From contig NC_041060.1 in the NCBI RefSeq assembly GCF_900634775.1, positions 14,661,051 to 14,725,050 on the forward strand: a stretch of 64,000 nt of DNA, written 5' to 3'. Shown here one piece after another: positions 1,641 through 28,269 of the stretch (position 1 is its first letter; each line of letters begins with the position of its first letter). The notes under the pieces are model-generated. The model ran no database searches. It was not told where the DNA came from and saw nothing but the letters and a program-made list of their open reading frames with translations. Origin of the DNA: Gouania willdenowi (Eukaryota). The translations under genes were made by a program, and so were the position numbers.

Positions 1641-4600
1641 CTGGCGGAAATGGGTTTCCATTATAAAGTGACCCTCTCTACTGATCTGTAATAATGTTAA
1701 ATGTATTGTACAATAAGGATAAAGCACCTTTACCTATTGTATGAAAGAATCAGCTGGATGGAGTGTTTGCACATTTTGCTTCAAAAGGTTTACTTTTAGA
1801 TTTTTATTTTTATTAAATAAAATAGAACTTTAAAAAAAAAGAAAAGAATGAGAAAATCGACAAGCACCAGATGGTTTCTCACACATATTTATTGTAAAAA
1901 ATACATATAAAAACAATTTCTGAGACATACAAAAGAGTGGAGCTTAGAAACAGTATATTGAACAGACAAGGACCCAGCGATTTTCTTGAATTGCATTACA
2001 TATTTACAATTTAATAAATAAGAACTCGATTTTTGCTTTCATACCAGTGTGAAGGCGGATTGTCCGTATCTTAGTAATGCAAATACCTCTGTGGTGACAC
2101 TTTTTAAAGCATTCTCTTCTGATGCAGATTTGTGCCCCTTCCCATGTTTTAAAGCAAATATTTAGGGACAAACACCATCCTTGGTTGAACAGGAGCTAGT
2201 TTACACTGAGTGTTCAGCTAGCATTGGTAGAAATTGAGGTATTGCACCACATAGCAAGGGGCAAAGAAATTAAATGAGAGTAATAAGAGTAAACCCCCAA
2301 TTCTCTGCCTCGTTAAAAACCAAAGACCACTACATCGTAACTAATCACCACAACAAATGTAACATCTAATCACCAATGTACCTCATCTTCTGCACTCACA
2401 CACACACACACACACTTTAAACCATATTCTGAGCCATTCTTCTGAAAAGCACAGAAAAACTGTTGGGTTCAAGTTTCTTTTCTTAATACAGAACATCAGA
2501 AACATGCACAGGACTGCCCCCTACTGCTGAAAACCGTTGTGGCCCCACAAATGGCAGAAAACCAAGGATTTAAGACAAAAACAAATGATGGAGTGACACA
2601 TTGGCCTGTACGGAAAGCTCAACTCCTCCTAAATGGATCCATTGCACTAAGAGTTAAACACTTTGCTGGGACACAGCTTTTTAACAGACGGCAAACACAA
2701 TCAATCCATTTATTGCTGCTTCCACAAGAGTTTCCACATGCTCTGTGCACCACATCTGCTGATCTGTCGGGGCCTTGCATCCCAAATCTGCCCTAAAAAC
2801 ACCACAAAAACCTGCTTGCACAACAATCCTTTCACCAGGCCAAGGCAATCGACACACGCGCACACCCAGAAAGGCCAAGAAAAGCAAGGTAACACATCTA
2901 GCATCATCAGTATAAATGTGATTATTATCTTAAAACAACAATAGGAGAGAGGCAATCCAAGTCTTATGTAATAATTAAACAACAGCTGTCAATAGCCCCC
3001 AGGGTTACAGAGAGAGGCCGATAACACATGGTGAGAAGCATGTCCCCAAAGCATTTTGCCTCAATATGCCCGACCCTATAATCCTCCCCCGATCTGGCAC
3101 TAATGTAACCAGATGGCAACATTGTTGCTCAAATTGTTTCACCCAAGAGTGAGTTTAAAAGAATAAGGGGTGATGGTTAGCAGATCAGAACCCCAAACTG
3201 AACTCTGGGTAAAACTTAACCTAGCGTACCAAATGCCACATGTGAAAGGGTTTTAACCAGCTTCAATAAGGTTTTATTAAAAAAAGAAACAAAAGCTTTG
3301 ATAATTAAAAAGCAATAACTTCATGACTAAGCAGTTTTCTGAGCATTCGACAGACTAAACAAGCACCCATACACATTCTATCATCATATAATACACACAA
3401 ACACACAGCATACACACTTCTACCAGACTTATGTTGGAGGAAAACAAAATAAAAGTCAGCCTTAAGGGACAAAAGTGCACAAATTGGTGTCAAAACTGGC
3501 ATTAATTCATTACTATGGCCCAAAAAACACCAGAAACCATCCCACAAACTGTCCATGTAGCAGCACATAAAATTCAGCGCTAACTAACAATCCCCAATAA
3601 AACTCTGATCTATCAAAAAAAAAAAGCACCCAGGCTTCCCCTGAAATGTTTACAGATGATTTAAAAAAAAAATTAAATAAAAAAAAAAAAAAAAAACAGA
3701 AATCCTGTAGCAGCTCCAGTCCCAATGACCCAAAAACAAGCCCTCGTTTGAAGTTCAAAGTAAAGCCCAGTTCCTGTGGTAACAGCTCACCATTTCAATG
3801 TAGCATTGGTTGGTTTAGGGTAAGCCTATGGCAAGAAAAACATTCATCCCATGAACACTTTTTTTTGGAAAATACTATAAAAATGAACACGTCTGTTCAG
3901 AGGGAGAAAAATAAACAGGTGAGCATCCAGAGTCGCAGTTAAGACAACATTTATCTCTCTTTATTTTTCTTTTGTACTCCTCTGTGGGACGTTGACCTCC
4001 CCGGGCTGATTATATTTCTAATGATCCAGAGTTTCAGGCGCCAAAAAAACAAAACACCGTCATCTCATTCCAACAAGGGGTGTGAGCTCAGATTTGTACA
4101 AAGTAGTTGCTTTTACAGTCTCAAGCTTGCCAAATAGAGGTCCAAACAGCTCGCTGAAATGGACCAATCAACAGAGAGCGTCAGCCGTAATCAACCGATG
4201 ATTCCTCTGGGGGATCATCTATTCTCCACGCAAAAGGTTGCAGTTTATTTTTGATGGAGACCGTGGGCTTTTTTTTTTTTGTTCTTCTTTCTTCAACTAC
4301 ACACTTTTGCTTGGTTTAATTAGAAGTTGTTTGTAGTCTCCTGTGAAAGATAGAGACAATTAGACAAGTCACACAATACATTACCAAAAATGAAGGGGAA
4401 CATAAGTTGTTAATATGATGTACTCAATGTGTGTCATTGTAAGATGAACAGTGTTTTAGCTTTCACATTGATTTCTGGAGTGGTTTAAAAATGCTTGCAG
4501 GATTGCACAATTAATTCTCATTCGATGAATTCATAATGCATACCTCTTAGATCTGTGAATCAAACAGAATTTTCTCCAAAAAGAAAAGGAAAAAGGCCAA

Positions 4601-6519
4601 AATTGGCAGTTAAAAGTTTGTTTTCATCTCCACCATAAACACTCAGTTTAACATTTTCACGCATTGCATTGTGGGATGTGGAGTCCTGTAAACAAATACA
4701 AAACAAAGTGTTTTTCCTTTATTCTTACAGTGATTCCTTGTGTTTCTTCACGGGATTTTTGTTCTAGTTTGTTCCCAGTGAAATCACAATGAAGTAATAA
4801 TACTTTTATGCACCCGTCTCCTGGACTTCACATCCCACAATGCAATGTGCAAAAATATCAACAAACGGAGTGTTTGGAGTGGCGACAAAAACAAAAATTT
4901 GAGAGGTAATTTCAGCCTTTTTCCTTTTCTTTTTGGAGTAAATGATGTTCAAGTTATTGGTGGAGGCATGATTTTCATCTTAATAAAAAATGATCTGGGG
5001 AAGCAGCTTTAAATAATGGAAGAAAAACTAGTCATCTTCTCTTCTCTGGTCAAGTTTACGGGCCGTTACATTATCGTTCTGAGGCACAACCTTCGTAAGG
5101 TCGATAAAGTTGTAACTACATGCAAAATGCAACAAAAGTGATGGAAAGAATTTAATTAAAAGAAGATAGGGCTGCATACATTGACTAAACCATTTGAGTC
5201 CTGTATTCAGATCATTACATACCTGAGTCGAGTTTGTCACTGGGAGGGAACCATGTGACCTGTGAGTCAATCAAAGGGATGTTCAGGGCAGCAGGGCTTC
5301 ACCTTTGACCAGGAATCAATGCAGCTGTGGGGAGACATTTGCGCCATTTTATTATAATAATAATTCATTTCATTTAAAAGTGCCTTTCAGGCTACCCAAA
5401 GACACTTTGCAATAAAAACAGAATAATAAAAACAGTGCAATGCATTATAAAACAGAATAATATTTTTTTTTTTTTTTTTTTTTTTTAAATAAAAAAAAAT
5501 AATAATGTAGGAGAAATTATGGTTTGTGAATGAGCAGATTGGTAGAGATGGCTTTTGACCATAATCTGCATTATATTTTACATTCACTTTTAAGACCTGT
5601 TTAAATCTGCATTAAGTTTTATTTGCACTATTTTTGCAAATGTTTTTGTAATTGCTGCACTACTAGCTTGATATATGCCACTTGTGGAATTTCTTAAAAA
5701 AAAAAAAAATTGAATTTGGCTATACTCGAATATATATATATTTATATATATATATATATATATCACAAACCTCTTCTGTTTTTCTTTTTATATTTTTCAG
5801 ATTAAATGATAAACCGCAGCCAAATAGGAAAAATAAGTAGGGCAAATAAGTTAAATAGCAGCACAGCTGTGTTTTATTTCTATACATTACTGCATATGTC
5901 AATGTAAAGGAAAGTAACCGTGTTCATGTAAGATTCAAAGTGTTTATTGTCATGTGCACAGTAAAGAAACATGTTTCCCTGTACAATGAAAATTCTATTT
6001 TGCTCACTACACTGGATGCCACACAAAACAAAAACAAACAAAGAAAACAAATAAAGAGAAAAGTATAGTAACAATGATTGTAATAATTTAAAAAAGTGAT
6101 CAATATAAATATGTACAAGGTAAAAAAAATGTAATGCATGAACACTGTGAAAAATACAAGGCTTTCCCAAATCTCATGTGCTCTACTGGGTGGTTTTTTA
6201 ATGTCAGTAAGACGCAGCTGTAATATGCAGTCGAACAGCCACAACTATCGACTGGGGCAAAATTACAAGTCTAACATTGTGCTGACACACACTGTTTATT
6301 AAAGAACTTCTGCTTCGGCGCAATGCGATAGCGACAATTTCCACTGAAGTCGGTTAGTCATTGATATGCTGCAGCCAAATTTAGATTTCAAACTTAGTCC
6401 GACAATTATTGCACAACGTTGGAAAAAATATACAAGCATCAGCATGAAGGATGTGCCAATGTTGGTCAATCTTGTGAGTTACATAGAGGGTGGAAAACCA
6501 GTGGATTCACAAAATGCAA

Positions 6520-8662: not shown

Positions 8663-8768
8663 CTCTTGTGGTAGACGCAGAGGCAGGCAAGTCTAGCAAT
8701 GGTTTCCCCCTGGACAAGATCCTCCAAACAGATGGAGCACTCTCCGCTGTCTTTACTGAGCACATCCG
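8663..8768 (-). CDS. RING-H2 exon of the ZNRF-like gene
   Basis: The - strand translation TADVLSKDSGECSICLEDLVQGETIARLACLCVYHKR matches ZNRF1/2 NDDVLTKDAGECVICLEELLQGDTIARLPCLCIYHKSC. Acceptor tttttacag, donor AG|gtaact. The phase (1 to 2) is compatible with a direct splice from exon 1. The terminal exon (CIDxWFEVNRSCPEHP) was not found. Confidence 0.65.
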
Positions 8769-10794
8769 CTGTAAAAACACACCAACATTTTATTAATGTC
8801 TACATTAAAACATATTTCACATAAATACTGACCCCAAACCATTATGCACAGTATCAGCTCTAAAACTCGTGGTCTTAAAAACATGGCTGGGACAGTTGAA
8901 AGAATTAGGTGTGGCTCACCACTTGGACCATCTTTTATTTTTATTGTATTACACGAGTTTACAAATATGAGTGAATGATAATTAGGATACTAACACAGAA
9001 GTGAGACCAGGCAGGACATACCCACAATGCACTTCCCTCCCACTACTACATTACCCATAAGACACCACGTTTTAGATAGCAGGCTCAGGCACAGCTCACG
9101 AGTTCCACGAGTGGTATTTTCTCATTTTTGGTCATCCAGAACATCACAAAAAGCTGACTCAGCATAATGTACACGCCATATTGCCCGATGTTTTTGTTCT
9201 CTCTTTGTACGATTGGTTTTCAGCATGTTAACGTCCACAGGCTTATTTAGAACAAGCAATGTCAAACATGTTCTAATGTTCTACTATACCAGTGTCATCA
9301 ATGTCAAAATTTTACAGACGTTCCACAGTGTGGATGGGAAAATGAATGGGATATATATCTATATATTTTATTTTGGTAGTCAGAACATGTCCCATTTATC
9401 AATTTTCCTTAAAATTTCATCCAAATCCTTTCATAGCTATTCAAGTTATTTTGCTAACAGATAAACGCAGACAGATAAATAGAGGGTAAAACACAACTTT
9501 TCGCTCTGCACTTCGCGCTGCTGCTGCGCTTCGCGGAAGTAATAAATATCAAGGATGAATATATACATATATACAAGTACTTTTTCATTCTGTAATTTGT
9601 CACTTTACGTTTGTAATTCTGACCATGAACATCTTTATAAGGACTTGATGGGGAAGAGCTGGAAAGGGAGTGGAATAGGTACCTAAGAATATTTGGGTCA
9701 ATGACGTGACACCTAAATAGTCTGTCCAGCTGCATTTATTTCAGTTAAAAAAAAAAAGGTTTAAATGTATAAAAAGATAACGAGTATGTAGTAACTTGGT
9801 ATAAATGCACTCACTTTGATTTTTTAAATGTCACTTACTAAATTACTTCTGTAATTTATTCTGTTATTCAAAGTGGCAAAAATATCATGTGGGTGTGACT
9901 GTCTGACCATAACTGCTGTATAAGATTTCAAAATATTTTCTTTTTATTTCCATCATAATATTCATGCAAACCTTGCCGATAATGCCCATTTTATGAAATA
10001 TCATGCAGTGAAATCCTTATACGTCATTGACCCATTTGTACAATGCAGTCATTATTTATTTTGTGTAAACTCTTTTATTCCATAAATCTGGCTACAAGAT
10101 ATGGACGATTTCAATTGATTGTTGTTCAGTATATTTAAAAAAAACAAAAAGAAAACAGTTACAAAATTAGATAATGTGGATTTTTTTTTAAATCAAACCA
10201 GCTTCTCTGTCATTTCTCTAATGCAATAAATGTGACTTACTGTTGTATGGGAGGGGAGGAGATGTGAGGCAGCTCAACAGGTGATCTTCAATCCGACCCC
10301 CCGGGAAATCCTTTGAGCAGAAAGGACAGCGGATATCTAGGAAGGGCGGAGACAGCGACAGAGCTGAGATTAGCGCACTGTGTCAGAGGGAGATATAAAT
10401 GATAGATGATGCTCACATCCCACTGAGGAATGAGACTGTGTTTGGACGTGCAGGCCACAAAGGCTGCCAACACAATGAAGAGCAGACGAAAAAAAACCAA
10501 GTCAGCCTGTCAGAATGCAGTGCTCACCATCCACAGAGAATAAAGTGTAAACCAACCTGGGACTGTTTTTGATTCCAGGAAGTTCATTTTGTCTTTTTTT
10601 TTTTAAATAATATAATATGTTACGGTTTCATTTATTCTGTCAACTTTTTTTCAACTCTCTCGTAAGAAGTCATTAGGACACATAAAAGTGATCAGTTGGT
10701 GCTTTGATGCTTATCTTGTGAAATAACTCATAGGGATACATCAAAGTAATCACTCGATGCCACTGAGGAAGACTGACAGTTTGCAATCAAAACA

Positions 10795-11720
10795 TGTCAG
10801 AGTAGGCCCTGGCAATATATCAAAATTCAAGATTTATCTAGATTTCTATTTTGGCGATATGGACCAAAACTCATATCTTGATTTTTTTTCTCAAAATGGC
10901 GATATACGATACTAATCTCAATATTTTTTAACTCAATAAAGTCTTACCAGAAAGACAATTCTGGGTTAAATTTGCTGATGCAAAATGCCACATAGGCACA
11001 TTAATAACAAACAGCTGCACAATGTGTTCCACTTTTGGCTTTTTCTCCTATAAGGGACAGCATGTGTGAGTGTGGCTTGTTTAGGGGAAGGTCTGGGTTT
11101 GGACGCACACGGAAAAACATCTGTGCTTTTCCTGCTGTTCTGAGAACTAACAAAAGCAGCGAATCCTGAAACGAGTACTTTAATACAAAATAAGCTATAA
11201 AATATATATATATATTTAAGAAATATGGAAAAATTGTAAAGGATATTGTTTGACTGTACTCTACAATAATATGAAATACTTGATGTGATTTATACTGGAA
11301 TTGTATGAATAAAAACAAGTTAAAAATAAAAGATAGACATATCTTGATATAGGCGATATTGTCATTTTCTATATCGTCAAAATAGAAAACTCGATATATC
11401 TTGAATCACGATATATTGTCCAGCCCTACTCTAACGATATATTTTTTATTTCTGAGTGCGTCCTAACCCAGACCTTCCCTTAAACAAGCCACATCATAGA
11501 TCTCACTCACACATGCTGTCCCTTATAGGATAAAAAGACAAAAGTGACACATATTGTGAAGCTGTTTGTTAATAAATGTGCCTGTGTGGCATTTTGCAAC
11601 AGCAAATCTAACCCTGAATTGTATTTCTGATGAGACTTTATTGAATTAAAATATCTAGATTTATATTGAATATCGCCATTTTGACAAAGACAATTTTTTC
11701 TATATCGCCCAGCCCTAGTC
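10795..11720. repeat. Two copies of an approximately 310-bp dispersed repeat in inverted orientation (arms 10795-11105 and 11400-11720) separated by about 300 bp
   Basis: The arm sequences are reverse-complementary over roughly 300 bp with small indels (AGTAGGCCCTGGCAATATATC... / ...CAGCCCTAGTC). GATAT-rich fragments of the same family also occur at 24960-25070 in a tep1 intron. The pair could fold into a long hairpin. Confidence 0.75.
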
Positions 11721-13699
11721 AGGAGATCAAATTTCCTGCAAAAAAGTTGTCTAATTAAATTAACCGTTAACATATTGGGACTGTTTTATTTGACTGCATG
11801 CAGCACCAGATAAAACAATGACTCAGGGCTGCTGCAGGAGATCCACGGGAACAACATCAATGCATGGTTCAGACGGACGGACCAAAACTGACTTTCTGCC
11901 CTACGACCTGATGCTAGCGGTAAACAGACTTGTTGACTAGTGACCCATTTCTCCAACGCTGATGGTCCGATTATCCAGCACAGCTCAAGGGTCAAAATAC
12001 ACGACCACTTTTTTTTTTAACGCCACCCCTGATAACCTCTTAGAAAAGGCTTGTATATCACAGATTATAGTTTGTAAAAAAAATAATTTAAAAAATCCAA
12101 ACCACCCTCTAAGCATGGGAAAAGAGATTATCTGTTGAGGAATGTAAATTCCTCAAATAATCCATTTTACTTTCAGATTTAACAGGCTGATGACTGCATC
12201 ACTGTAGAACACAGTGATGCAATTACATCCTGAAAGAGGAGAGAGAAGATTGCTTTAGGGTAAAAGATTTTAATCTATATAGTAGAAGAGACAAACAGCC
12301 TGTATGAAGACCTAGAGGAGGATCCACTTCCATCAATGTTGTTACATTATAAATATCAGTACCTATTATATCATTAAGTGATTCCAGCAAGACTATTTTT
12401 GTCTTCTTTTTTGAATAATATATTAAAGTTTAATTTATTCAGACAACAGTTCCTTAGGAAATTCACTTTGATCTCCTGACAACTGCCAGTCTTCGTCAGA
12501 GGCGTCTGCTGATCGCTTCAGGAAAATCAGTAAAATATTCAACTAAATTTAACTAAAATTATATTTTTTCCATATTTGTATATGAAGCTCTAATATGCAT
12601 GTAACACTTATTCAAGCTGTCTGAATAAATGAAACCTTAACATAATATCGATAACTGTTACATGCATATTAGTGCTTCATATACAAAGATGGAAAATCTC
12701 ATTTTAGTTTGAAAAATTATCTAAATTTTAATGGCTTTTGGTCAAATATTTTACTGATTTTCTTTAGGGATTATTAATAGTATTAATAACAATCCTTTTT
12801 TTAGGGGCAAAACACTGTGCTACCTTGTAAATCTATTGGATCTTGAAAATTGAACATTACTTATTATAATACAGCGCTACATAAATGTCTATTTGCATTG
12901 AAGTAAAAACAAACATGTATTGGTGATTAATCAAGTAATGAGTTTGAGATCTGATCTTCAAATTTGACATTTATTTGTTTCCTTTTCCCTGTCATCTGCC
13001 AATAAAATTTCATAATTACTGCTTGACGGCCCTATGACCGGTTTAATAATCTAAAGCAGACAATGGCAACTGGCGGCCCGGGGGCCACATGCGGACCTAA
13101 GTCTAATTTGTGTGGCTCCCAAAAAGGAGATTGTCCACGAAAAAATAAACAAAGAAAATTAAAAAAAATATATAAATAAAATAAAATAAGATAGATCAGT
13201 CTAGGTTAAAGAGGTTATAAGGCAGTCAGAATTGTAATCGATAAGTAAATCATTTATCAAATTGAATGTGTGAATAGACATTGATTATCGATTAATTTGA
13301 TGGATTCTATGTAATATTTTTATTCAATGCTGAATACTGTAAAGTGTGGGTTCTTTTTTTGGAATTTCAATTGATAGATGTGGAACTTACCAAGCAGTGT
13401 TGTAGTTTCAATATAACAAAATTACATCTTTTGCTGTCAGACTAATGCTAACTTTTAAAAGTATTCATCAAAAAGTGTTCCATATCCTTCAAGAACAGGT
13501 AAATTACTGGACATTTGTAAAATAAGTGTTCAGTTGTTTTGCAAAAATCACAAATGTTACTTATCTCAGCAAACTTTGAAATATAAGAATTAGTGGGCTA
13601 TATATTATGTATTAGTTTATATTGCATTGATTCTTTATCTCATTTGTCATATAAAATGTGTAGGCTAAAAGCCATATATTTTTCCTCTTGGACTTATCA

Positions 13700-14650
13700 T
13701 ACGTTGACTGTACTGTATAAGTAGCTTTTAGACCATCTCTGATCTAAAGTGTGTAATCTTACTGCCGTGGCGGTTGTTAACACGATAGAGGCCGATCCAA
13801 GCCTCTGACATCGGCCGTTGGTGTGTGCCTCGGACTCGGGCGGATCTCGCTCCAACGCTGTGGGAGGACGAGTGTCGGTTCCCGGGCAGCCGCTCGGAAA
13901 AGGTGCGGTGCGGTGTGCGGCCTGTCTCCTCCCCGGGCTGGTGTTCCGATTCAACGGGAGCCTCTGGGCTTGTGTTGCCGTCCTCGTCGGGCTTCCCCTC
14001 GCTGTTGTTGTCGTCCACGGGTGACGCTCGGTGAATGCTGTGGTGGTCAGCGGGGCTTCCGTCAGCACTAGCCCCATGCTGTCCTAGGTCAGAGTCGCTG
14101 CCCTCCTCTGATCGGCTCCGGTTAGCCTCAGTGTCCTCGAAGCTTCCCGAGAAGTCAACGACGAAGCTGGTAGGCCTGGTACACCGGGGCCGCCGGTATG
14201 AGTCTCTTTTTGTGCCGTCTTTTCCAAACGCTGGGGCCACTACTGGGTCTTCTTGGAGACGGCTGGCTCTGGTCCCCATCCTGGACTGGCTCCTGGGTTG
14301 AACAGGCTAGCCGCGTAGCGTCCTCAAAGCGAACCTCCACGGAACAAGAGGACAGTGTTTCCTCAAAGCGACGAAAGATCGCTTTGGTCACAAGACAAGG
14401 CTCAAAGCAACCGAAGATCACCTGAGTTTGATCACAAAACAATGCTCGGTCTTGTACTTTCAAACATCACCCGGTACCGGGACTCTGGCAGTGCTTCGTC
14501 CTAACCGTCCACATTTCCCTTTCTTTTTCGCCCTGAACCTCTCGCTGCTGCAGCGGAAATACCGCATTTCGCTTCCTCTTTGCGGCGCATTCAAACCTTT
14601 ACGGTAATCTCACTTTGTTAACCAACTAATCCACTCAACGATTACATTAA
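13700..14650. promoter_or_regulatory. CpG island with divergent promoter region, lying between the znrf-like first exon and the tep1 upstream region
   Basis: CG dinucleotide density is much higher than in the rest of the window. It contains the 5'UTR and ATG of the - strand gene. The tep1 ATG lies 2.2 kb away on the opposite strand. Confidence 0.5.
13763..14279 (-). CDS. First coding exon of a ZNRF1/2-like RING E3 ligase, with an N-myristoylation-type start MGTRAS
   Basis: 172-codon ORF on the - strand starting at ATG 14279 (MGTRASRLQEDP...), inside a CpG-rich block at 13700-14600. It is S/D/E-rich and disordered, like the ZNRF1/2 N-termini. The donor CA|gtaaga is at 13762, phase 1. The MG-x3-S motif matches myristoylated ZNRF proteins. 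Confidence 0.6.
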
Positions 14651-16534
14651 TCAACTTCAACAAAAACGTGATTTGTTTGTATACATGCAAATAGCCTTTT
14701 ATAAACACGAATCGTTATTACTCAAGCTTAATCGGTTGATTTGTGAATGCGCTCCTATTAGTAATATTATGGTAAAAAAGTACACAATAATACTAACCAA
14801 TCAGCGGCGTCTGACGCCATCGCTTATGTTGGGTGGTTTACCGAAAGTGAGCAGGCACAGACCTCCTCTTTACCTGGATTCAGTTGCGTAAACTACCAAC
14901 AATGTGCAACACTGCACACCGGTAGATTAATTATTATACGGTAATAGTGTATTAGGTGATGCTAAACTGCAAAGTCAACATTTCGGTGAGTTAAAATGAT
15001 CTAACCTTGGTGTTCAATTTCAACCGGTGATTGTTCCAAATGGTGATCAACTTCCTGTTGGATTTTTGCTTGGAATGAGACTTACATTTCCAAATTCATT
15101 GTTTACTGATATCTTACTAACAGCCCAGACCAGTATGAGTATTGACATTAAAGCCTCGCCCCTGCGTTTGTTAAACATTTGGAAGACGGTGGTGATAAAT
15201 GCAGTTGTGTGTCGAAAAGCCGTCACCAATTAAAAGGGTTCCCATTTCATCCATGACAGTAACCCGAGCTCCTCCACGCCTATGTAAAAACTCAGGAGTC
15301 ACCCAAAGCAAGGAAGCGTTGACGCAGCTGAAATACTAGCTACCTAATTAAGTAATCAAGATTTAAAAACATGTCTATTTTGAAACAATTGGGAAGGAAA
15401 TTTGATTTCCTATCCCAGATTTTTTTTTTTTTTTTTTAACTCTAATCGGGGTTTACGTATCGTATGTACACCTCTAGATAACCTCCTTACGAACATATAT
15501 GCTTCACAAAAAAATATTTTACTGAAGCCACTGAAATATAAGGAATGTAAGAATGCAAAAAAAAAACGTATGGAAAAAGTACTGTTCATAACGTTGGACA
15601 TTTTTTTTTTTTTTTTTTTTAGTGTACTGCATTATGTTTATTATAAGAAGGAAAAGACATAATTGTTGTCAGTGTATGTCTCTTATTTATGTAGTTTATA
15701 CAACCAGATATCTGTTCTCACCATATCGAGTAACTGTCTATAGTCTACATTCATACAAAATACAATGTTCATATTTGTTTAAACTTGACATTATGAGCTG
15801 ACCTGTATATGTAGTATTTATTTATTCAAAGACACTGAACTCTCTCTGATATGCCTTAAAACATTTAAAAAGTACAATTCTAAGTTACCAAGTTTGATGT
15901 GGAGGAGCAACAACTCTACTTTGAGCTCCTGATCCCATCATTTAGGGTCAGACCCATATATGCTAATGGAAACTCATTTTCACTGCTTTGTACTGGGATG
16001 TTATTTTGTATTTTCCCTCAAAGAAGATTAATCTTTCTTTTATTTTATTTTCAAATGAAAGAAAATGTAACCCAAGCAAAACTTTGTTTATTATGGACCT
16101 CGTTTCTCGATTCTGTGTTGATTTATATTCATTTTATACCTGTTTTAGGGAAATTACTTTTTCAAAAATGTAAGGTTTTTAAGTGACAATAACTTTAGGT
16201 CCCAGCGATGAAATTATATTGGCTCATGAACTTTTTCTGTTGAGCTTGTTGTGCAATAAATAAATGATGAATGCCTCTATTTTAGCATTTTATTTGAAGG
16301 GTTTTTTTGTGAAACTCCTTTTTGCTCCTTTCTTGAGGTGCTGACTGTTTGCAAACTTTGTCCCCGTGTCATGTATGCCTTTATCAGGCAACACACCTTT
16401 GAGTACAATAGTGCAAAGCTTCTTTTAAACCGGAGCCCTGCTGAGCTGCAAATCACAGTGCTTAGTCACGCCTTAACTTGTGTGCTTTTAAACTGGCTTG
16501 TAATCATACATGACATTCCGGTCATTGTATTTTA

Positions 16535-17042
16535 TTTCACAGAAATGAAGGCTTTGACTTTACAACTGACAAACGTGGCTTCTGGAGCGCAGCAGCAGCA
16601 GCAGCAGCAGCAGCAGGCTTCATGTGGGAGAAGTCTGACCTCCAACTATGCTCCTCTGAATCTGGAGAATAAGATTTTAACCCAGTCGTCCACGATGAAA
16701 CCTCTGACTCGCTCTCCGATGATGAACTTAGCGGCTTCCCCTTCTGCTTGCTCCGCTCTCCAACCTTCCAGACTATCTTCAACCAAATCCTCCCTTTTTC
16801 TCTCCCCCGCTTCCTTCGCCTGCACCTCCAGCTCCCACCTTCTCAGCACAGAGAACAAGCTCCTAACTTCCGACTCGTCTTTTCTCAAAAGCTCGTTGAC
16901 CTCCACTTCCTTTTCCAGTCATGCCCTGTTTAGTCACCTGACTCCACCTTCTTCATCCCTAAAGCCTAGTACGGAGCTGAAAAAGGCTGAGGAAGAGGGA
17001 GAGGAGATATTGATGAAGTCCTTCTCTGACGAAACATGTACG
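16535..17042 (+). CDS. tep1: TEP1 exon 1 (first coding exon). It is low complexity with a polyQ tract and is S/T-rich.
   Basis: ATG at 16535 sits just after the acceptor-like sequence tttatttcacag. The donor is ACG|gtaagt at 17043. The ORF extends upstream but the in-frame M at 16535 is preferred. Confidence 0.6.
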
Positions 17043-18257
17043 GTAAGTTAGAACACAGGTTCTCAAACTATTTTGGCTCAAGTACCCCCTTTCTTTTATT
17101 TTTGAATCCAAGTACCCCCTTTGTCTGACTACAACATTTTGCTAAGAAAACTATTTAAAGGTCTCATCTTCTAAGAACCCCAAAACATAGTATTTGAGGT
17201 TTATTTTCCCAAACTCGCCTGTTTTCCAGAGTTTTTGCCTCTGACTAGTCACTTTCTGAGCAGCTCTACACAAACAGGCTGATTTGCGTCCTACTTATGC
17301 ATATTCATGGTGGGACGTGTCTATAGACGGACACTGAATTCCTCCTCCCCACACGGTGATGTAGGGCCAGAGGACGGCCCCGCCCTCCTCCCACCCACTC
17401 CTTAGCCGAGCTCATGCTGCTTTATAAACACGAGACAGAGCGTGGGGGGGGGGGGCGTTCACCAGTACATACATAGACTGTAGAAAATACATACATAGCA
17501 CTTCTCACCTTCGTGGGCGTGTCTGTTTACTTCCTGGAGGCACGGCTTCTCCAGCTCAAGTAACGATTGAGGGAGTCAATGAAAAAAACACTTTGGGTAT
17601 GTGTATGAAGCCCCATTAGCATTTTTATGATGTTAAAAGCACAGAAAAGTTGATTTAGCGTAACCTGGGCCTTTTAAAAACCACTGTCGATCATAATGAT
17701 GGAATGAATGAGTAATGACACACATTTTAAATAATCTAATTTATTAAATAAGTGGAAAAAAAACGGTTTTTAGTGCAGTGCTTCACAACCTTTTTTGGAT
17801 CGTGACCCCATTTTGATATCAAGAATTTCTGGTGACCCTAGAATTAGTTTTTGATCATGTTTGAGCTCAGATATTTATTTGTCTTTACTGCATTTTAGTT
17901 GAACTAGATTTACGTTTCACAAAGTGAAAGTATAGAATTGTTTACAATTAATTTAAAAAAAAGAACAATGACTAAAAAATGTCAAATCTATTTTAATTTT
18001 TTAGAAATCTCAGGCGACCCTATTTAAACGACTTAACAGACTCCACATGGGGTCCCGACCCCAAGGTTGAAAAACACTAATTTATTAGCTCCTGAATAGA
18101 TTTATTTCTTTAGTTTTTATCATTTCCACTCATCTCGCGCCTGGGTTTGGACCAAGACTAACACTTTATTTGTTAATTTTCCATTCTCTTTCTCTCTCTT
18201 TCTGTCTGTCTCTCTCTCAAGTACCCCCTGTAGTGCCCTCGTGTACCCCTAAGGGTA

Positions 18258-18950
18258 CATATTAGAGGTCGACCGATATGGGATTTTCAAAGGCTGAAGC
18301 GATACAGATTAAAAAAAAAAAAATTCAGCCGATGGTCGATATCTGAAGTCGATATTTGAGGCCGATATATATATTTTTTAAAGCACATTGATTATGAAAG
18401 ACAATTGAAACACTTATATGACATAAATGTATATACTAGAAATTAAATTAAATACACCAATAGAACTCTTAACATTTATTGAACTTTAAATATACCTGTA
18501 CACAACCAAGTAAAACGAAAAGTACAGGACTGGTAAGTAGCAGTAACAATATGCAATATACAATGTGCAAGTAGTCGGTTTAAACTAAATACCTGTTTTT
18601 GGTATTACCACTCACTCCTTCCCTCTGTTCACAGACACCACCATACCTAAGCTTCACACTTGTCACCATATTCACAACTTCACTTCACTCTCGCTTTAAA
18701 ATGATCAATCCTTCCCCACCCATTCCATTTCCTCCCTTGCATCTCTCCTCCCTGTTCCCTTCCCCCCATTTAGGTGTAAAACTGCCCTCTCTCTTTATAT
18801 GCTCCCTTTAATAAAGTGTTTTTTACCCTTCCTTCTTTAAGGAGGGGCTGGGGATGGTAAAAAAAAATTAAATAAATACATTTATTTTTAATTTTTTGGC
18901 TGATGGCCAAAAAAAGTCCATATCGGCCCGATATATCGGTCGACCACTAG
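18258..18950. mobile_element. TIR-bounded element in tep1 intron 1 (GAGGTCGACCGATATGGG ... CCGATATATCGGTCGACCAC)
   Basis: Terminal 16-20 bp inverted repeats; the interior is AT-rich. Confidence 0.55.
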
Positions 18951-19109
18951 TACACATACCCCCATTTGAGAAGCACTGCATTAGAAAACACTTAAAAAAT
19001 GGAGTCAAATAGAACTGGCAGCAAATCTTAGTTCAACAGTTTGACTAAAACAATATTTAAGCGTTTAATGTGTGTTGTTATCTTGTTTGGATTTCTTTGG
19101 GTTAAACAG

Positions 19110-19301
19110 CGTTGTTCAGAAAGTGACGAGTACTCCAACGAGGAAACTTCAGTGGAGGAGACGGATTCCGTGGAGTCATCAGTCACACAAACGGATGATG
19201 GAATTCAGGATGTGGATGAAACTATGGTGGTCACCGAGGAGGAATTTCCAGAGCTTGACAGAGAAAACAACAAGACTGAGGAAGAACTGAAAGAAAAAAA
19301 A
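19110..19301 (+). CDS. tep1: TEP1 exon 2, acidic region
   Basis: Acceptor aaacag, donor gtaaga, phase 0-0. The SESDEYSNEE..EELKEKK sequence resembles the human acidic pre-TROVE segment. Confidence 0.75.
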
Positions 19302-19400
19302 GTAAGAAATGAAATAAATCCAAATTAAATTGTCATCATTTTAGTTATTGCATCTGTGTAAAGGTTAATCTAACTTATCCTTTCTCTAATATTTCTTCAG

Positions 19401-19550
19401 TACCTCCTGCTGAATGCTGTTTGCTGCTCTTTGGTTATGAAAAGCAAAACTCCAGGCCAGAAAGGCTGGAAGTCAAAGGACAGCATTTGGCTCAGGATTA
19501 AAAAGTTTGCAAATGAAATCTCTGAAAGTGACCCGGAATTTATTTTGAAG
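19401..19550 (+). CDS. tep1: TEP1 exon 3, start of TROVE domain
   Basis: ..ISESDPEFILK compared with human LALLEPEFILK. Acceptor cttcag, donor gtttgt. Confidence 0.85.
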
Positions 19551-20451
19551 GTTTGTGTGGTTCACTCTCTTAAGTCTAAGTTAGGTAAAAGTTTATCAAA
19601 ATTAGTTAAAGTGTGGGTTTAAAAAGAATAATACAGTAAATACATTCCAAAATGTATTTAAAAACAAATATGTATGTGCTACACTGAAAACATTCACTGT
19701 ACATTTTTTTTTTTAATCACACTGTTGTTAAATCTAAATTTTATTTATATATTTACCTTTATTTTACCAGATAAGGTCAGGTACCAACCAGTTCTCAATT
19801 ACAATGACGACCTGGGCCGGAGGCAGTGGGGTTACACACGAAACATACAAACAAGTTAAAATACACTTTTAAAACATTGAGACGGATAAAAGACAGTGTA
19901 GAAATACATCAACATGCCCATCCATAATAAATATCTATCAATATAAATATATTTCATGCAATAAACCTTGTGTGTAAAGACTTGTTATCAATATAAGCAA
20001 AATGCTTACATTTACTACATGCTTTTTATTCTTTTGTTTTATTTATGTTATACTGTATTTTAATGTTTAGGGATTAATGATTGTAAATACCAAAAACTAA
20101 CAACATATTCTACAGAAAATGTTTAATAATATTGGAAAGCTGTTTTCAAATAAATCTTCAATGTTTTTTGGGGTTTTTTTGTACATTAATCAAAGCGATT
20201 TGTATTGCCAAGCAAGCCAAATCTCTAAAGATGGACTTTGTGTAGCTGGCTAATGGTTTTCATACAAAATAATGTGATAGTACAGGCCTTTATTTTCACA
20301 TTGGACATTTTTAATAATACTAACATTTGCTAAGGAGGCATACATTTCTGAACAGAGCTGCACTGAAACAAGACATCACCGTTCTCATGGTTTCTGATCA
20401 TGTGTATTTACTATTTTGACATGTTATTGTGTACATTTGTGTCCAATTCAG

Positions 20452-20616
20452 GTTGCAGTCTACACTCGACAGAAGCTCAACATCCGGATCACTGCAAACT
20501 TTCTATTGGCCCTCGCTGCCAATATACACACCACGAAGCCACATCTCCGCAGATACTTCTGTGCAGCCGTGCAGTTGCCCTCTGATTGGCTGGAAGTGAT
20601 CCGAATTTACACCGCT
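20452..20616 (+). CDS. tep1: TEP1 exon 4, TROVE
   Basis: VAVYTRQKLNIRITANFLLALAA..HLRRYFCAAVQLPSDWLEV matches the human sequence closely. Confidence 0.9.
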
Positions 20617-20694
20617 GTGAGTTTAATGGAGTGTTTGCAGAAGAGGGCGGTCATTTCTGTTTTGGTTCTGTCTCACTGATTCTTTTCTTTAAAG

Positions 20695-20832
20695 TGCTTC
20701 AAGCGCTCCCTGCCCATGTGCCTGAAGAAAGCCATGGCCGACAAGTTCAAGGACTTCAATGAGTATCAGCTGGCCAAATACAACACGCGCAAACAGCGCT
20801 GTAAGCATAACAGCAAGAAGCCAGAAAAAAAG
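20695..20832 (+). CDS. tep1: TEP1 exon 5, TROVE
   Basis: AMADKFKDFNEYQLAKYNTRKQR compared with human TAMTDKFAQFDEYQLAKYNPRKHR. Confidence 0.9.
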
Positions 20833-20899
20833 GTACAGTTGCAGGTGATAGGTTGGTTTTTAGTTCTTCTATAGGCAAACTATCATCACAGTCTGATCA

Positions 20900-21238
20900 C
20901 TGGGCTTACTAGGTCTGGGCCTGGTTTGTAGTTGGATGGAAAACCACTGAGAATTCCAGGTGCCACAGTGGGGGACAGTCACTGGAGTGATATCTGTCAT
21001 TGTGTCCTTGGGCAAGACACTTCACCCACATTGCCTAGTATGAATGTAGTGCGTGAGTGAGTGTTGGTGGTGGTAGGAGGGGCTGATGGTGCACTATGGC
21101 AGCCTCACTTCTGTCAGTCTGCCCCAGGGCAGCTGTGGCTGCAATAGTAGCTTACCACCACTAAGTGTGGAGTGAAAGAATATTGCTTTAATTCTGTAAA
21201 GTGCTTTGAGTGTCAAATAAAGTGCTATGTAAAATTTA

Positions 21239-21278
<40 letters not shown>

Positions 21279-21280
21279 AA
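20900..21280 (+). mobile_element. Teleost SINE (tail ..GTAAAGTGCTTTGAGTG..AAAGTGCTATGTAAA) followed by an (ATT)n microsatellite, in a tep1 intron
   Basis: Characteristic fish SINE core GTCCTTGGGCAAGACACTTCACCC..CAGTCTGCCCCAGGGCAGCTGTGGCTGCAAT. The same family occurs in the opposite orientation at 63790-64000 and in part at 32460-32540. Confidence 0.75.
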
Positions 21281-21499
21281 AACAAAAAAAATCTGGAAAT
21301 TTGAATTTGATATTCGTTTTCAGGCTAATATCAAACAGATATCAATATCCGATTGGAACACCCCTACCGTCAATAGGTGCTTTTATTTATTTCTTTGTTA
21401 CAGCTTCAGTTTCGTGTGATTTTTGTTTAATTTCCTTCTACAAAACACATTCTGCATCAATCCCTATGTGAATTTTCTTCAATGTTTTTATCTTATTAG

Positions 21500-21571
21500 A
21501 AACCAAGTCCCAAACAACTGAAAGATTGGGCATCAAAGGTCAGATCAGATGCATCTACGCTGAGGAAGTTT
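21500..21571 (+). CDS. tep1: TEP1 exon 6
   Basis: 24 aa in phase 0, KPSPKQLKDWASKVRSDASTLRKF. Acceptor ttattag, donor gtaagt. Confidence 0.7.
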
Positions 21572-21749
21572 GTAAGTCAACGCCACTTTCCTTCTTCTGG
21601 GGCTAACTGAACAAAATGTTTGTTACTAAATTATTTAATAATTGAGTTTTCTGTTGGTTGCTGCATATGAAGGAGTAAAATACTTCATGCTAAATGCTTG
21701 CAAACTCATGCAGTGCAGTTGTCTAACTCTAGTGTGTGTCTGTGTGCAG

Positions 21750-21883
21750 TTGGAGTCCGCTGGCAAAAAGTCATCGGTTTCAGTGGTGGATAAAAAGCAG
21801 AGTGAGTTTAGCATTAAGAAGATGATCAAGAGGTTTCACATTAAAGAACCGGCTGAAAACATCATGGCTCTCCTGGGGAAAAA
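21750..21883 (+). CDS. tep1: TEP1 exon 7
   Basis: KKMIKRFHIKEPAENIMALLGK compared with human KKLVQRLHIHKPAQHVQALLG. Confidence 0.85.
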
Positions 21884-23011
21884 GTAAGAAGAGAGAAAAC
21901 CAACAGATGAACGAGCCATTCCTCAACACAGTCCTGACGTTACACTAACATGATATGCGAATGCTGATTGCCTAAAATCTCCAAAATGGCGATGCCAACA
22001 TATAAAGAGATATTACTTGTATTTAAAGGCTTAAAGCTGTTATAAATGACTCAAAAGATATTTCTTACACAAATAAGTAACAACGTTTCATTCAGCTTTA
22101 AACAAACATCTAAAGTGCATTCATGTGATGGGTGGTGTTATACTTTCATGATATGTTTGTTTGTTTTTTTTTTACTTTTAGTTAGATAATTTAAATTTGT
22201 GCCTGGTAATTACAAGACATTATAAATAGATGTTTTTGAAATGTGCCTGTAGGTACATGACTATGAGAGAGTTTAGAAATGCAAAATGTAGATTTTATGC
22301 TTGTTTGTTTTTTTGCAAGCGAACATACTATATTTATTTTTTTACTTTGTTTATGTATTTTACAAAAGTACAGTGGTCGTCATTTGGGGGGGTGGGGACT
22401 TGCATTCAGTGCAAAGAAGATAGAGGGAGGGACAGAACACTTATTCACTCAATCTTTTCCTATAAGTAGAAAAAGATATACTATTTTTTATATACTGTAT
22501 ATGCATCACAAGGATGTAATCACAGCATTTGATTTATTTTATCACCATGTTGAGATATAATTTGGTATTTTTTCACTTGTTCACCCTTATTCAGTCGTGT
22601 GTCTTAAAGAAAATTGAGGACATATTTATTACAAATATTTCCTGCTTTATAAGTTTATACGTTTCCAACATATTTAGCATTAAAGTTAAAATCCAGTGTT
22701 ATACTGACAATTTTTTTTTTTTCTTAATTTTGTTTAAGCTAAAACATAGATTATGTGGCGATCATGACTAAACCACTACTGTCTTTTGATCTGTATTAAA
22801 AGGGCTTATGGGGCGGTGTGTAGCTCAGTGGGTAGAGCCAAAAAAATCTTTAAAAAAAAAAAAAAAAAAAAAGGGCTTATTGCATATAATATTTTTACTA
22901 AGGGTTCATTTCATAATTTTATTCTTTTTAACTGTAAAAGCAAATGAGATTGATATGTACGACAGTCCCCACTTGCCCACAACTTGAAACTCAAGTGTTT
23001 GATGTTGACAG

Positions 23012-23169
23012 GTATCCTGCAAACCAGAAATCCTTCACCTACAGTGGATTAAAGGGCGAGTGGGACAGGGAAAGAGCCGGGCAACGGATGAAACTCAAAG
23101 AGCCACAAACATGGGAACGGCTGCTCAGTCAGGAGGGCAACAAGGCGGCCACCTGGGAGAAGCTCATAG
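23012..23169 (+). CDS. tep1: TEP1 exon 8
   Basis: YPANQKS..RAGQRMKLKEPQTWERLLSQEGNKAATWEKLI compared with human YPSNLQL..RAGKRMKLSRPETWERELSLRGNKASVWEELI. Confidence 0.9.
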
Positions 23170-23299
23170 GTCTGAGATCCAGCTTTTTATCAAGCAAGAA
23201 AGATATATTGTGTACATTGAATATGCAGAAAATAAGAATTATTGTTGCGTGAAATAAGGTTAAATGTAACATCAAAGATATTATTTTTCCAATATTTAG

Positions 23300-23409
23300 A
23301 TGAGAAGTCCCTTCCATTCATGGCCATGCTAAGGAATCTGAGGAACATGATCATTAAAGGGATCAGTGAGAAACATCACAACAAGATCCTCAAGAGACTG
23401 ACAGATAAG
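23300..23409 (+). CDS. tep1: TEP1 exon 9, TROVE
   Basis: DEKSLPFMAMLRNLRNMIIKGISEKHHNKILKRL compared with human NGKLPFMAMLRNLCNLLRVGISSRHHELILQRL. Confidence 0.92.
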
Positions 23410-23490
23410 GTGAATTACACTAAAACTCAGGATTACACCCTCGCATCGTGCAAATGTTTCCTTTCCAAACTTGGATTTGTTGTTTTACAG

Positions 23491-23569
23491 AAAGCAGTCA
23501 TCGAAAGCCGACAGTTTCCATTCAGATTTCTTGCGGCCTATAAAGTCATAATGGAGATCCGCAAATTGG
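23491..23569 (+). CDS. tep1: TEP1 exon 10
   Basis: KAVIESRQFPFRFLAAYKVIMEIRKL compared with human KSVIHSRQFPFRFLNAHDAIDALEAQL. Confidence 0.9.
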
Positions 23570-24219
23570 GTGAGAAACAGGAAGTGGCTCTTTAAAAAAA
23601 AAAAAGAAAAGGTCAATAAAATCCAAGTATTTGCTTTGGTAACGGTACTTTTTTCGCAACAAGACTTGGCGCAAAAATGATGAATGTAAATGTGAAAATT
23701 TTTAAGCTGATTTTTATAAATGTTTATTTCATTTACTCGCTGCAGTTCAGCAGTTTATGTTTCGACTGAGCCATCCACCTATTACATATTTAATTCTGTC
23801 CGTCAGCTCATCCATTTATGACATTGTCACTCAACATGTTTTTAGTGATTCCTAAACTTCCTATAATATAGATGTGCTGTTAGTGATATGTAATCATCTG
23901 TCAAAGCTGCTGTAATGTGTGCTAAATGATTTGAATTGGCTGTTTTGGGAGATATTCAGTATTTGGTTGTCTGGTTTAACTGGTCTTTGGAGGAAAGCTG
24001 TCCTAGTCATTGAGAAACAAGATTATATGGATAACTTCAGGCCTTCAGTGCTGTCAGATTCAAATGATCAGCCTGTGACTAGTGTCAATATGTCCTTTAA
24101 GCATCTTCAAACACACGTTAAATACTAAGAAAAACTCAAAAATAATTCGTTTATTTATTGTTATATTAATCCACATTTTGTTCCTTTGCTTTTTTCCCTT
24201 TTTATTTATTGTCTTTTAG

Positions 24220-25504: not shown

Positions 25505-25584
25505 GTAGGTGTCTTTTTTTTAAAGCAATAAAGTACTGTAAAACGGGTAACTAATATCTCTTTGTATCCTTAAACATGATACAG

Positions 25585-26588: not shown

Positions 26589-26667
26589 GTAAGTTATTGT
26601 TTAATTAATGTGGTTATGATGTGGTTACTTTCTGCTTTATTTAAAGTCTCCTTTCTTAAAATCTCAG

Positions 26668-28255: not shown

Positions 28256-28269
28256 GTAAAGTTCTGACC

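What the first reader, a model, noticed from the sequence alone, without database searches (positions are those of the whole stretch)
8663..14279. ZNRF1/2-like myristoylated RING E3 ligase gene head-to-head with tep1; gene model incomplete
Exon 1 (MGTRAS.., disordered and acidic) and a RING-H2 exon (ECSICLEDLVQGETIARLACLCVYHK) are clear. However, the UBZ-type zinc-finger exon (FKCP.CSK...MC..KPR) and the terminal exon (CIDxWFEVNRSCPEHP) typical of ZNRF1/2 could not be found anywhere on the - strand between 1300 and 13700. Exon 1 (phase 1) can splice directly to the RING exon, giving ...RHG-T-DVLSKD. Either this is a lineage-specific shortened ZNRF paralog, the missing exons lie outside the window, or their sequence has diverged. 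Without splicing, the read-through after YHKR hits TAA immediately.
Basis: partly seen in the sequence, partly recalled or inferred. Interest (0 to 1): 0.5.

Follow-up and report, generated by a model that had tools for sequence, protein, structure and literature searches.

The report
Complete clingfish ZNRF-family ligase gene

Summary
The claim that the zinc-finger and terminal exons are missing is wrong. They lie on the minus strand at 10336-10241 (IRCPFCSKDF..HLLSCL..PYN) and 5324-5267 (CIDSWSKVKPCCPEHPFD-stop).

All four exons have GT-AG borders and compatible phases, giving a 258-aa protein. That protein is identical to RefSeq XP_028328144.1 of the clingfish Gouania willdenowi. It is collinear with full-length orthologues across ray-finned fishes, and transcript contigs from related fishes join the exons at exactly these junctions.

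Residues 171-258 align end to end with the solved ZNRF1 ZnF-RING structure (E 5e-34). All zinc ligands, the Ube2N-contact residues and the N-myristoylation motif are conserved. The tep1 neighbour is confirmed, but that adjacency is recent: I found it only in percomorphs.

The gene is neither ZNRF1 nor ZNRF2. It falls in a third clade (89-96% bootstrap) with gar, bowfin, sturgeon, reedfish, lungfish and coelacanth, and no tetrapod or shark member was found. Databases label it inconsistently.

Verdict: ordinary, already annotated, low interest.

The parts
13763..14279 (-). Exon 1 coding part (517 nt, residues 1-172 plus the first base of codon 173). It carries the MGTRAS N-myristoylation motif, a basic N-terminal stretch, an acidic low-complexity core and a basic C-terminal stretch. 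The donor is GGCA|gtaaga, phase 1.
   Evidence: A blastn block 14372-13752 is 78% identical to Anabas. Transcript contigs L003-L005 end this block at 13760.
10241..10336 (-). Exon 2 (96 nt, phase 1 to 1): C2HC zinc finger C176-x2-C179-x11-H191-x3-C195 (NIRCPFCSKDFPGGRIEDHLLSCLTSPPLPYN).
   Evidence: tblastn (E 4e-4). Acceptor ccttcctag| and donor |gtaagt. Conserved in Anabas and gar. Transcript junctions. Aligns to the ZnF of the ZNRF1 structure 5YWR.
8663..8768 (-). Exon 3 (106 nt, phase 1 to 2): first part of the RING, TDVLSKDSGECSICLEDLVQGETIARLACLCVYHK. It includes zinc ligands C215, C218, C233, C235 and H238, and the E2-contact equivalents E214, L219 and E220.
   Evidence: (E 7e-15).
5267..5324 (-). 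Exon 4 coding part (58 nt including the TGA): (S)CIDSWSKVKPCCPEHPFD*. It carries zinc ligands C241, C252 and H255.
   Evidence: tblastn (E 8e-4). Acceptor tctccccacag|. 94.5% identical to Anabas at the DNA level. Transcript junction 8663|5326. The C-terminus is identical to orthologues P0002 and P0005.
1877..5266 (-). Putative long 3'UTR (about 3.4 kb). Collinear conserved blocks from 3952 to 1877 end just after an AATAAA at 1893-1888.
   Evidence: blastn against Anabas L001:14659-16798, 66-79% identity. Sequence. The 3'UTR of transcript contig L003 aligns to 3625-3553. The extent is inferred, not shown by RNA from this species.
14280..14581 (.). Short divergent intergenic and 5'UTR region shared with tep1. 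It includes a 75-bp block (14507-14581) homologous to the annotated first exon of Anabas tep1.
   Evidence: Transcription start sites were not determined.
16533..41391 (+). Neighbouring tep1 gene (divergent orientation). Its exons are collinear with Anabas tep1 and include TROVE (about 23299-23580), DUF4062 (about 29018-29326) and WD40 / TEP1 beta-propeller exons (39328-39552, 41158-41391).
   Evidence: The true 3' end of tep1 was not mapped.
12111..12177 (-). Conserved non-coding element inside intron 1, 92.5% identical to Anabas while the flanking intron does not align. It contains the palindrome GAGGAAT-TTA-CATTCCTC.
   Evidence: No Rfam match. Function unknown; a candidate enhancer.

Best explanation
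The locus is a complete, intact four-exon protein-coding gene on the minus strand. The coding exons are 14279-13763, 10336-10241, 8768-8663 and 5324-5267, followed by a probable 3.4-kb 3'UTR. The window comes from the blunt-snouted clingfish Gouania willdenowi.

The gene encodes a 258-aa member of the ZNRF family of membrane-associated RING ubiquitin ligases. By homology, the initiator Met is removed and Gly2 is N-myristoylated, which tethers the protein to endosomal, lysosomal or plasma membranes. A low-complexity N-terminal half carries conserved Ser/Arg-rich islands that are probably regulatory phosphorylation or docking sites. The C-terminal C2HC zinc finger stabilises a C4HC2H RING, which recruits ubiquitin-loaded E2 enzymes (Ube2N/Ube2V1 for K63 chains, Ube2D for others) and transfers ubiquitin to membrane-proximal substrates.

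Shown here: gene structure, identity to the RefSeq model, domain content, conservation of ligands and E2-contact residues, and a phylogenetic position in a third ZNRF lineage separate from ZNRF1 and ZNRF2.

Inferred from ZNRF1/2 and Drosophila detour: myristoylation, membrane localisation, E2 choice and ligase activity.
For: Gene structure and annotation:
- Four exons with GT-AG borders and compatible phases give a 777-nt ORF.
- The product is an exact match to XP_028328144.1 of Gouania willdenowi, in a 231-member 90% cluster.
- Orthologues up to 89-91% identical cover 100% of it and are collinear across all three junctions.
- The same four blocks occur in the Anabas and gar genomes.
- Three short transcript-like contigs from related fishes carry the CDS uninterrupted and map to the window with breaks at the predicted junctions.

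Family membership:
- Pfam zf-RING_2 scores 31.9 bits, above its 27.3 cutoff.
- Residues 171-258 align to chain residues 2-89 of the ZNRF1 CTD structure 5YWR, E 5e-34.
- Counts in full-length third-clade proteins: ZnF spacing 69 of 71, RING spacing 71 of 71, myristoylation pattern 71 of 71.
- ZNRF1 Glu183/Leu188/Glu189, which contact Ube2N (PMC5941314), correspond to E214/L219/E220 here. E214 is invariant in 43 family members.
- N-myristoylation localises ZNRF1/2 to vesicle membranes (PMC10869362).

Third lineage:
- NJ bootstrap is 89% for the clade and 96% with coelacanth; ZNRF1 gets 94% and ZNRF2 99-100%.
- Gouania has a separate znrf1, XP_028305751.1.
Against: - There are no RNA data from Gouania itself. 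Splice evidence is cross-species, plus a RefSeq computational model.
- No biochemical data exist for any member of this third lineage.
- The E2-binding loop differs from ZNRF1/2: ARLPCLC becomes ARLACLC, and WFEVNRSC becomes WSKVKPCC. E2 preference could therefore differ.
- Pfam gave no zinc-finger (UBZ/C2HC) hit for the ZnF at E<=1.
- The tree uses only 87 columns and neighbour-joining. The third clade evolves faster (within-clade identity 0.77 against 0.94-0.95), so long-branch effects are not excluded.
Confidence: 0.93

Rival explanations
1. A lineage-specific shortened ZNRF paralogue in which exon 1 splices directly to the RING exon, lacking the zinc finger and ending soon after YHK.
For: Exon 1 (phase 1) and exon 3 (phase 1) are frame-compatible, so skipping the 96-nt exon 2 would keep the frame.
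Against: Both 'missing' exons are present with good splice sites. They are conserved at 81-95% DNA identity with Anabas and are included in all 71 full-length orthologues and in three transcript contigs. Without exon 4 the RING would lose three of its eight zinc ligands.
Confidence: 0.01
2. The gene is simply the clingfish orthologue of ZNRF1 or of ZNRF2, as public databases variously label it.
For: RefSeq calls the identical protein 'znrf2' and UniRef calls it 'ZNRF1'. The domain architecture is the same.
Against: - Gouania has a separate bona fide znrf1, 57% identical in the ZnF-RING domain.
- Sturgeon has ZNRF1, ZNRF2 and this gene. Sardine and Polymixia have ZNRF2 plus this gene. Lungfish, bowfin, sablefish and Hemibagrus have ZNRF1 plus this gene.
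- The tree separates three clades.
- Eight diagnostic residues distinguish the third clade; K249 and F257 are in 14 of 14 members and never in ZNRF1/2.
- Naming is inconsistent from species to species.
Confidence: 0.05
3. A decaying or non-functional gene copy (pseudogenised RING fragment).
For: The clade evolves faster than ZNRF1/2. In the reedfish protein the first CxxC of the zinc finger is missing.
Against: The ORF is intact and all eight RING ligands and four ZnF ligands are kept. There are 83 invariant positions across 20 orthologues from gar to percomorphs. The UTR and an intronic element are conserved. Transcripts exist in relatives.
Confidence: 0.02

Closest known systems
ZNRF1 (human Q8ND25; structure 5YWR of its ZnF-RING with Ube2N)
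   Same: - Gly2 myristoylation motif followed by a low-complexity N-terminal half.
- C2HC zinc finger followed by a C4HC2H RING with identical ligand spacing.
- The C-terminal 88 residues align without gaps (E 5e-34).
- The Ube2N-contact residues E183/L188/E189 are conserved.
   Different: - Only about 58% identical in the ZnF-RING domain, whereas ZNRF1 itself is 94% conserved from shark to mammal.
- The N-terminal half is unrelated in sequence.
- Diagnostic changes: F178, R187, L193, S212, S216, K249, P250, F257, and Pro to Ala in ARL(P/A)CLC.
- Gouania has its own separate znrf1 gene.
ZNRF2 (human Q8NHG8)
   Same: Same architecture and family. RefSeq even names this gene 'znrf2'.
   Different: The ZNRF2 clade (99-100% bootstrap) excludes it. 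Domain identity is about 58%. Sturgeon, sardine and Polymixia carry ZNRF2 as well as this gene.
Orthologues of this gene in other fishes (e.g. XP_028328144.1 itself; 'zgc:66427'-named protein in Hemibagrus; LOC122790906 in the lungfish Protopterus; XP_064416480.1 in the coelacanth Latimeria)
   Same: Full-length collinearity, the same four exons and the same diagnostic residues. The downstream Bax1-I and PARP neighbours are shared by Anabas, pike and a cyprinid.
   Different: The head-to-head tep1 neighbour was seen only in Anabas and the window. Gouania has Asp182 where nearly all orthologues have Pro, and a 4-residue deletion in exon 1. Its introns are about three times longer than in Anabas.
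Drosophila detour (CG14435), the invertebrate ZNRF1/2 homologue
   Same: A myristoylation-motif RING E3 of the same family, acting at endolysosomal membranes (PMC10869362).
   Different: It is a single pre-duplication gene. Invertebrate sequences fall outside all three vertebrate clades in the tree.

Membership tests
ZNRF family (ZNRF1/ZNRF2/detour-type membrane-associated RING E3) | N-terminal Met-Gly with an N-myristoylation consensus (G-{EDRKHPFYW}-x2-[STAGCN]-{P}) | tested here: met
   MGTRASR matches. The pattern holds in 71 of 71 full-length orthologues, and G2 is invariant in 43 family members. Actual lipidation was not tested.
ZNRF family (ZNRF1/ZNRF2/detour-type membrane-associated RING E3) | C2HC zinc finger immediately upstream of the RING | tested here: met
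   C176-x2-C179-x11-H191-x3-C195. It aligns to the ZnF of 5YWR.
ZNRF family (ZNRF1/ZNRF2/detour-type membrane-associated RING E3) | C-terminal modified RING with C4HC2H ligands and ZNRF spacing, ending ..CPEHPxD | tested here: met
   C215..H255 matches C-x2-C-x14-C-x-C-x2-H-x2-C-x10-C-x2-H. Pfam zf-RING_2 is above its cutoff. The top orthologue's NCBI record is named for an mRING-CH-C4HC2H_ZNRF domain.
ZNRF family (ZNRF1/ZNRF2/detour-type membrane-associated RING E3) | E2-contact residues of the ZNRF1:Ube2N interface (E183, L188, E189) | tested here: met
   E214, L219 and E220, by the gap-free alignment. The residues are taken from PMC5941314.
ZNRF family (ZNRF1/ZNRF2/detour-type membrane-associated RING E3) | E3 ligase activity and membrane localisation | not testable with these tools
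   Needs biochemistry or cell biology.
ZNRF1 orthologue group | Groups with ZNRF1 in a phylogeny and is the only such copy in the genome | tested here: not met
   The ZNRF1 clade (94% bootstrap) excludes it. Gouania has a separate znrf1, XP_028305751.1.
ZNRF2 orthologue group | Groups with ZNRF2 in a phylogeny | tested here: not met
   The ZNRF2 clade (99-100% bootstrap) excludes it. A Gouania znrf2 was not retrieved, so co-occurrence with ZNRF2 was shown only in other species.
Canonical RING-H2 (C3H2C3) | His at ligand positions 4 and 5, Cys at position 8 | tested here: not met
Ligand 4 is Cys235 and ligand 8 is His255.
UBZ-type ubiquitin-binding zinc finger | Match to a UBZ/C2HC profile and ubiquitin binding | tested here: inconclusive
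   No Pfam zinc-finger hit at E<=1 for this protein. One bird ZNRF1 protein, which carries a duplicated zinc-finger segment, has precomputed PF18439/PF13913 hits. In ZNRF1 the ZnF mainly stabilises the RING.
TEP1 (the neighbouring gene) | TROVE domain plus NACHT-region and WD40 / TEP1 beta-propellers in one large gene | tested here: met
   TROVE 58.9 bits, DUF4062 50.7 bits, WD40, and Beta-prop_TEP1_2nd at E 2.7e-11 (43.6 bits, a partial match below that model's 89-bit cutoff) on plus-strand exons. Exons are collinear with the Anabas 2603-residue gene.

The most novel reading that the evidence does not exclude
This gene represents an unnamed third vertebrate ZNRF lineage at least as old as the common ancestor of bony vertebrates. 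It is retained in ray-finned fishes, coelacanth and lungfish, and has been lost in tetrapods. It evolves several times faster than ZNRF1/2 and has an altered RING surface (ARLACLC, WSKVKPCC, HPFD) that could change E2 or substrate preference. Public databases currently mislabel it as ZNRF1, ZNRF2, RNF6 or 'uncharacterized'.
Probability: 0.7. Interest if true: 0.3.

Novelty: already known. Interest (0 to 1): 0.13.

Why it matters
For the scan, it closes an apparent anomaly. There is no truncated ligase here, only two short diverged exons that are hard to spot by eye.

More broadly, the modest value lies in annotation and evolution. Fishes carry a third ZNRF gene that databases name inconsistently. 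Transferring ZNRF1 or ZNRF2 functions to it (axon degeneration, mTORC1 and Na/K-ATPase regulation) would be unsafe. Fish knock-outs of znrf1 or znrf2 may also be buffered by this extra paralogue.

Tried and rejected
- Literature searches for the zebrafish-style name 'zgc:66427' failed or found nothing. Searches for ZNRF paralogues in fish found no paper describing a third lineage.
- Biopython bootstrapping timed out and was replaced by a numpy NJ.
- I looked for the next downstream gene (Bax1-I family in Anabas) in 1-5266. Only non-coding, multi-frame conservation was found, consistent with a 3'UTR.
- An Rfam scan of 1-16000 gave only a sub-threshold mir-1277 hit at 1581-1657 (25.6 bits against a gathering score of 81), taken as chance.
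- Short amphibian 'ZNRF1' proteins were checked as possible tetrapod members of the third clade. All carry the ZNRF1 signature.
- The idea that the tep1 head-to-head arrangement is an ancient, constrained bidirectional pair was rejected. Cyprinid, pike, gar, bowfin and sturgeon have other upstream neighbours or none within 10 kb.
Full report
OBSERVATION

The window is eukaryotic DNA with GT-AG introns and teleost-type repeats. On the minus strand the ATG sits at 14279. Exon 1 runs to 13763 (donor GGCA|gtaaga, phase 1). The RING exon runs 8768-8663 (donor AAGAG|gtaact), and unspliced read-through gives K-R-TAA.

It said no zinc-finger exon and no terminal exon exist on the minus strand between 1300 and 13700.
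- 8775-8665, E 7e-15
- 10334-10242, E 4e-4: IRCPFCSKDFPGGRIEDHLLSCLTSPPLPYN
- 5326-5270, E 8e-4: SCIDSWSKVKPCCPEHPFD

The next best hit anywhere has E 0.75. The two exons are only 42% and 61-68% identical to the human proteins, which explains why they were missed by eye.

GENE MODEL

The four exons are 14279-13763, 10336-10241, 8768-8663 and 5324-5267. They have canonical acceptors (…ccttcctag|, …tttttacag|, …tctccccacag|) and GT donors. The phases are 1, 1 and 2, and the exons join into a 777-nt ORF of 258 codons plus TGA.

Four independent lines confirm this model.
(i) The 258-aa product is, residue for residue, RefSeq XP_028328144.1 / UniRef A0A8C5I224 of Gouania willdenowi. This identifies the source species and shows the complete model is already annotated.
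(ii) A database search returns 152 homologues. The best cover 100% of the query at up to 89-91% identity and are collinear across all three junctions, with an identical C-terminus.
(iii) The same four blocks are found in the genomes of Anabas and of the spotted gar. A DNA comparison with Anabas shows collinear conserved blocks for each exon.
(iv) Three short contigs from sequencing runs of related fishes (1.1-2.2 kb) carry the whole CDS as one uninterrupted ORF. They map to the window as four abutting blocks whose ends fall at 13760|10336, 10241-3|8768 and 8663|5326, i.e. the predicted junctions within alignment slack.

Downstream of the stop codon, collinear conserved blocks run from 3952 to 1877 and stop just after an AATAAA at 1893-1888. 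One transcript contig's 3'UTR aligns at 3625-3553. I infer a 3'UTR of about 3.4 kb.

WHAT THE PROTEIN IS

Pfam finds zf-RING_2 at residues 214-253 above the curated cutoff. Residues 171-258 align without gaps to the whole crystallised C-terminal domain of human ZNRF1 (5YWR chain B, E 5e-34).

The zinc finger is C176-x2-C179-x11-H191-x3-C195. The RING is C215-x2-C218-x14-C233-x-C235-x2-H238-x2-C241-x10-C252-x2-H255. The same spacings hold in 69 of 71 (ZnF) and 71 of 71 (RING) full-length orthologues.

In the ZNRF1:Ube2N structure the RING alone binds the E2. Glu183, Leu188 and Glu189 make the key contacts, and E183A lowers affinity about tenfold. The zinc finger mainly stabilises the RING (PMC5941314). 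By the gap-free alignment these residues are E214, L219 and E220 here, and all are conserved. E214 is invariant in 43 family members.

The N-terminus MGTRASR fits the N-myristoylation consensus, as do 71 of 71 orthologues. [quoted passage not shown]

Exon 1 encodes a hydrophilic, low-complexity region (GRAVY -1.28). It has an acidic core (residues 44-125: 20 D/E against 6 K/R) between basic flanks. Islands such as RSRSEEGSDSD, HRTFSERLP and RPxSEAWIGLYRV are conserved from gar to percomorphs.

MECHANISM

The mechanism is inferred by homology and was not tested. The protein would be a myristoyl-anchored E3 whose RING recruits Ub-loaded Ube2N/Ube2V1 or Ube2D to ubiquitinate membrane-proximal substrates, with regulation through the N-terminal region.

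WHICH ZNRF?

Public names for this gene alternate between ZNRF1, znrf2, zgc:66427, RNF6 and 'uncharacterized'. Gouania has a separate, typical znrf1 on another chromosome-scale contig (XP_028305751.1).

An exhaustive profile search of 1.84 billion representative proteins found 64 hits below 1e-30. Among them, sequences sharing this gene's signatures come from sturgeon, reedfish, lungfish and coelacanth.

I built a neighbour-joining tree on the 87-column ZnF-RING alignment with 1000 bootstraps. It gives ZNRF1 94%, ZNRF2 99-100%, and a third clade at 89%, or 96% once coelacanth is added. The third clade contains the window gene, teleosts, bowfin, gar, sturgeon, reedfish and lungfish.

Eight residues are diagnostic of the third clade. 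K249 and F257 occur in 14 of 14 members and never in ZNRF1/2. Sturgeon carries all three genes, and several other species carry two. The clade evolves faster: within-clade identity is 0.77 against 0.94-0.95.

No tetrapod or cartilaginous-fish member was found in the exhaustive search or in a search seeded with the coelacanth protein. Suspiciously short amphibian 'ZNRF1' entries proved to be genuine ZNRF1.

The best reading is a third ZNRF lineage at least as old as bony vertebrates and lost in tetrapods. There are caveats: the alignment is short, the method is distance-based, the clade sits on a long branch, and 50% clustering could hide members.

NEIGHBOURHOOD

Plus-strand exons from about 16.5 kb to at least 41.4 kb carry TROVE, DUF4062, WD40 and TEP1 beta-propeller signatures. 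They are collinear with a 2603-residue gene that lies divergently 253 bp from the Anabas orthologue. A 75-bp conserved block at 14507-14581 corresponds to the annotated first exon of Anabas tep1. The head-to-head tep1 claim therefore holds, with 5' ends a few hundred bp apart, although start sites are unknown.

The arrangement is not ancient. A cyprinid has C1q and collectin genes upstream, pike has ApoL, gar a GPCR, sturgeon histones, and bowfin nothing within 10 kb. The downstream Bax1-I and PARP genes, by contrast, are shared by Anabas, pike and the cyprinid. That downstream gene lies beyond the window's edge.

VERDICT

The gene is complete, intact, conserved and already in RefSeq. It is a member of the ZNRF family by every sequence-testable criterion, but it is not an orthologue of ZNRF1 or ZNRF2. 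Interest is low. The only point with some value is the unnamed, inconsistently annotated third lineage.

Noticed in passing
window 12111-12177 (- strand), intron 1: A 67-bp element is 92.5% identical to the Anabas intron while the surrounding intron does not align. It contains the palindrome GAGGAAT-TTA-CATTCCTC (two CATTCC half-sites, which from memory resemble TEAD/MCAT sites). There is no Rfam match, and blastn did not detect it in gar. It is a candidate intronic enhancer.
   Followed up: partly
window 10881-11694, intron 1; also 12566-12696: Intron 1 holds a large imperfect palindrome: about 235-nt arms (10881-11115 and 11449-11694), 81-91% complementary, around a spacer of about 330 nt. 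A smaller 46-nt-arm hairpin lies at 12566-12696. These are probably inverted copies of a fish repeat or a foldback element. They help explain why this gene spans about 9 kb from start to stop codon, against 3.2 kb in Anabas.
   Followed up: partly
window 1877-3952 (- strand): A series of collinear blocks 66-79% identical to Anabas lies 1.3-3.4 kb past the stop codon, ending at an AATAAA (1893-1888). This implies a long, conserved 3'UTR, possibly dense in regulatory sites.
   Followed up: partly
window 14507-14581: This conserved block matches the annotated first coding exon of Anabas tep1 (ATGGAACATTTCGCTTCC...). Gouania has no ATG at the homologous position (..CCGCATTTCGCTTCC..). Either the exon is non-coding here or the Anabas start codon is mis-annotated.
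   Followed up: partly
window about 10310 (codon 182) and exon 1 near residue 85: Gouania has Asp182 inside the zinc finger (SKDFPGG), where most aligned orthologues have Pro (others have Thr or Met). It also lacks four residues (IPSS-like) that relatives have in exon 1.
   Followed up: no
window 46931-47461 (+ strand) and overlapping frames: A long, extremely Glu-rich low-complexity ORF (EEEKGSEHEESEQEEEEGE...) sits in a purine-skewed stretch (GC skew +0.21 at 46-48 kb). It was not assigned to tep1 or to any other gene.
   Followed up: no
database entries: Orthologues of this one gene are named ZNRF1, znrf2, ZNRF2-like, zgc:66427, RNF6 (reedfish) or uncharacterized, sometimes differently in RefSeq and UniRef for the same protein. 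The reedfish model lacks the first CxxC of the zinc finger, through mis-prediction or degeneration.
   Followed up: partly
   Followed up: no
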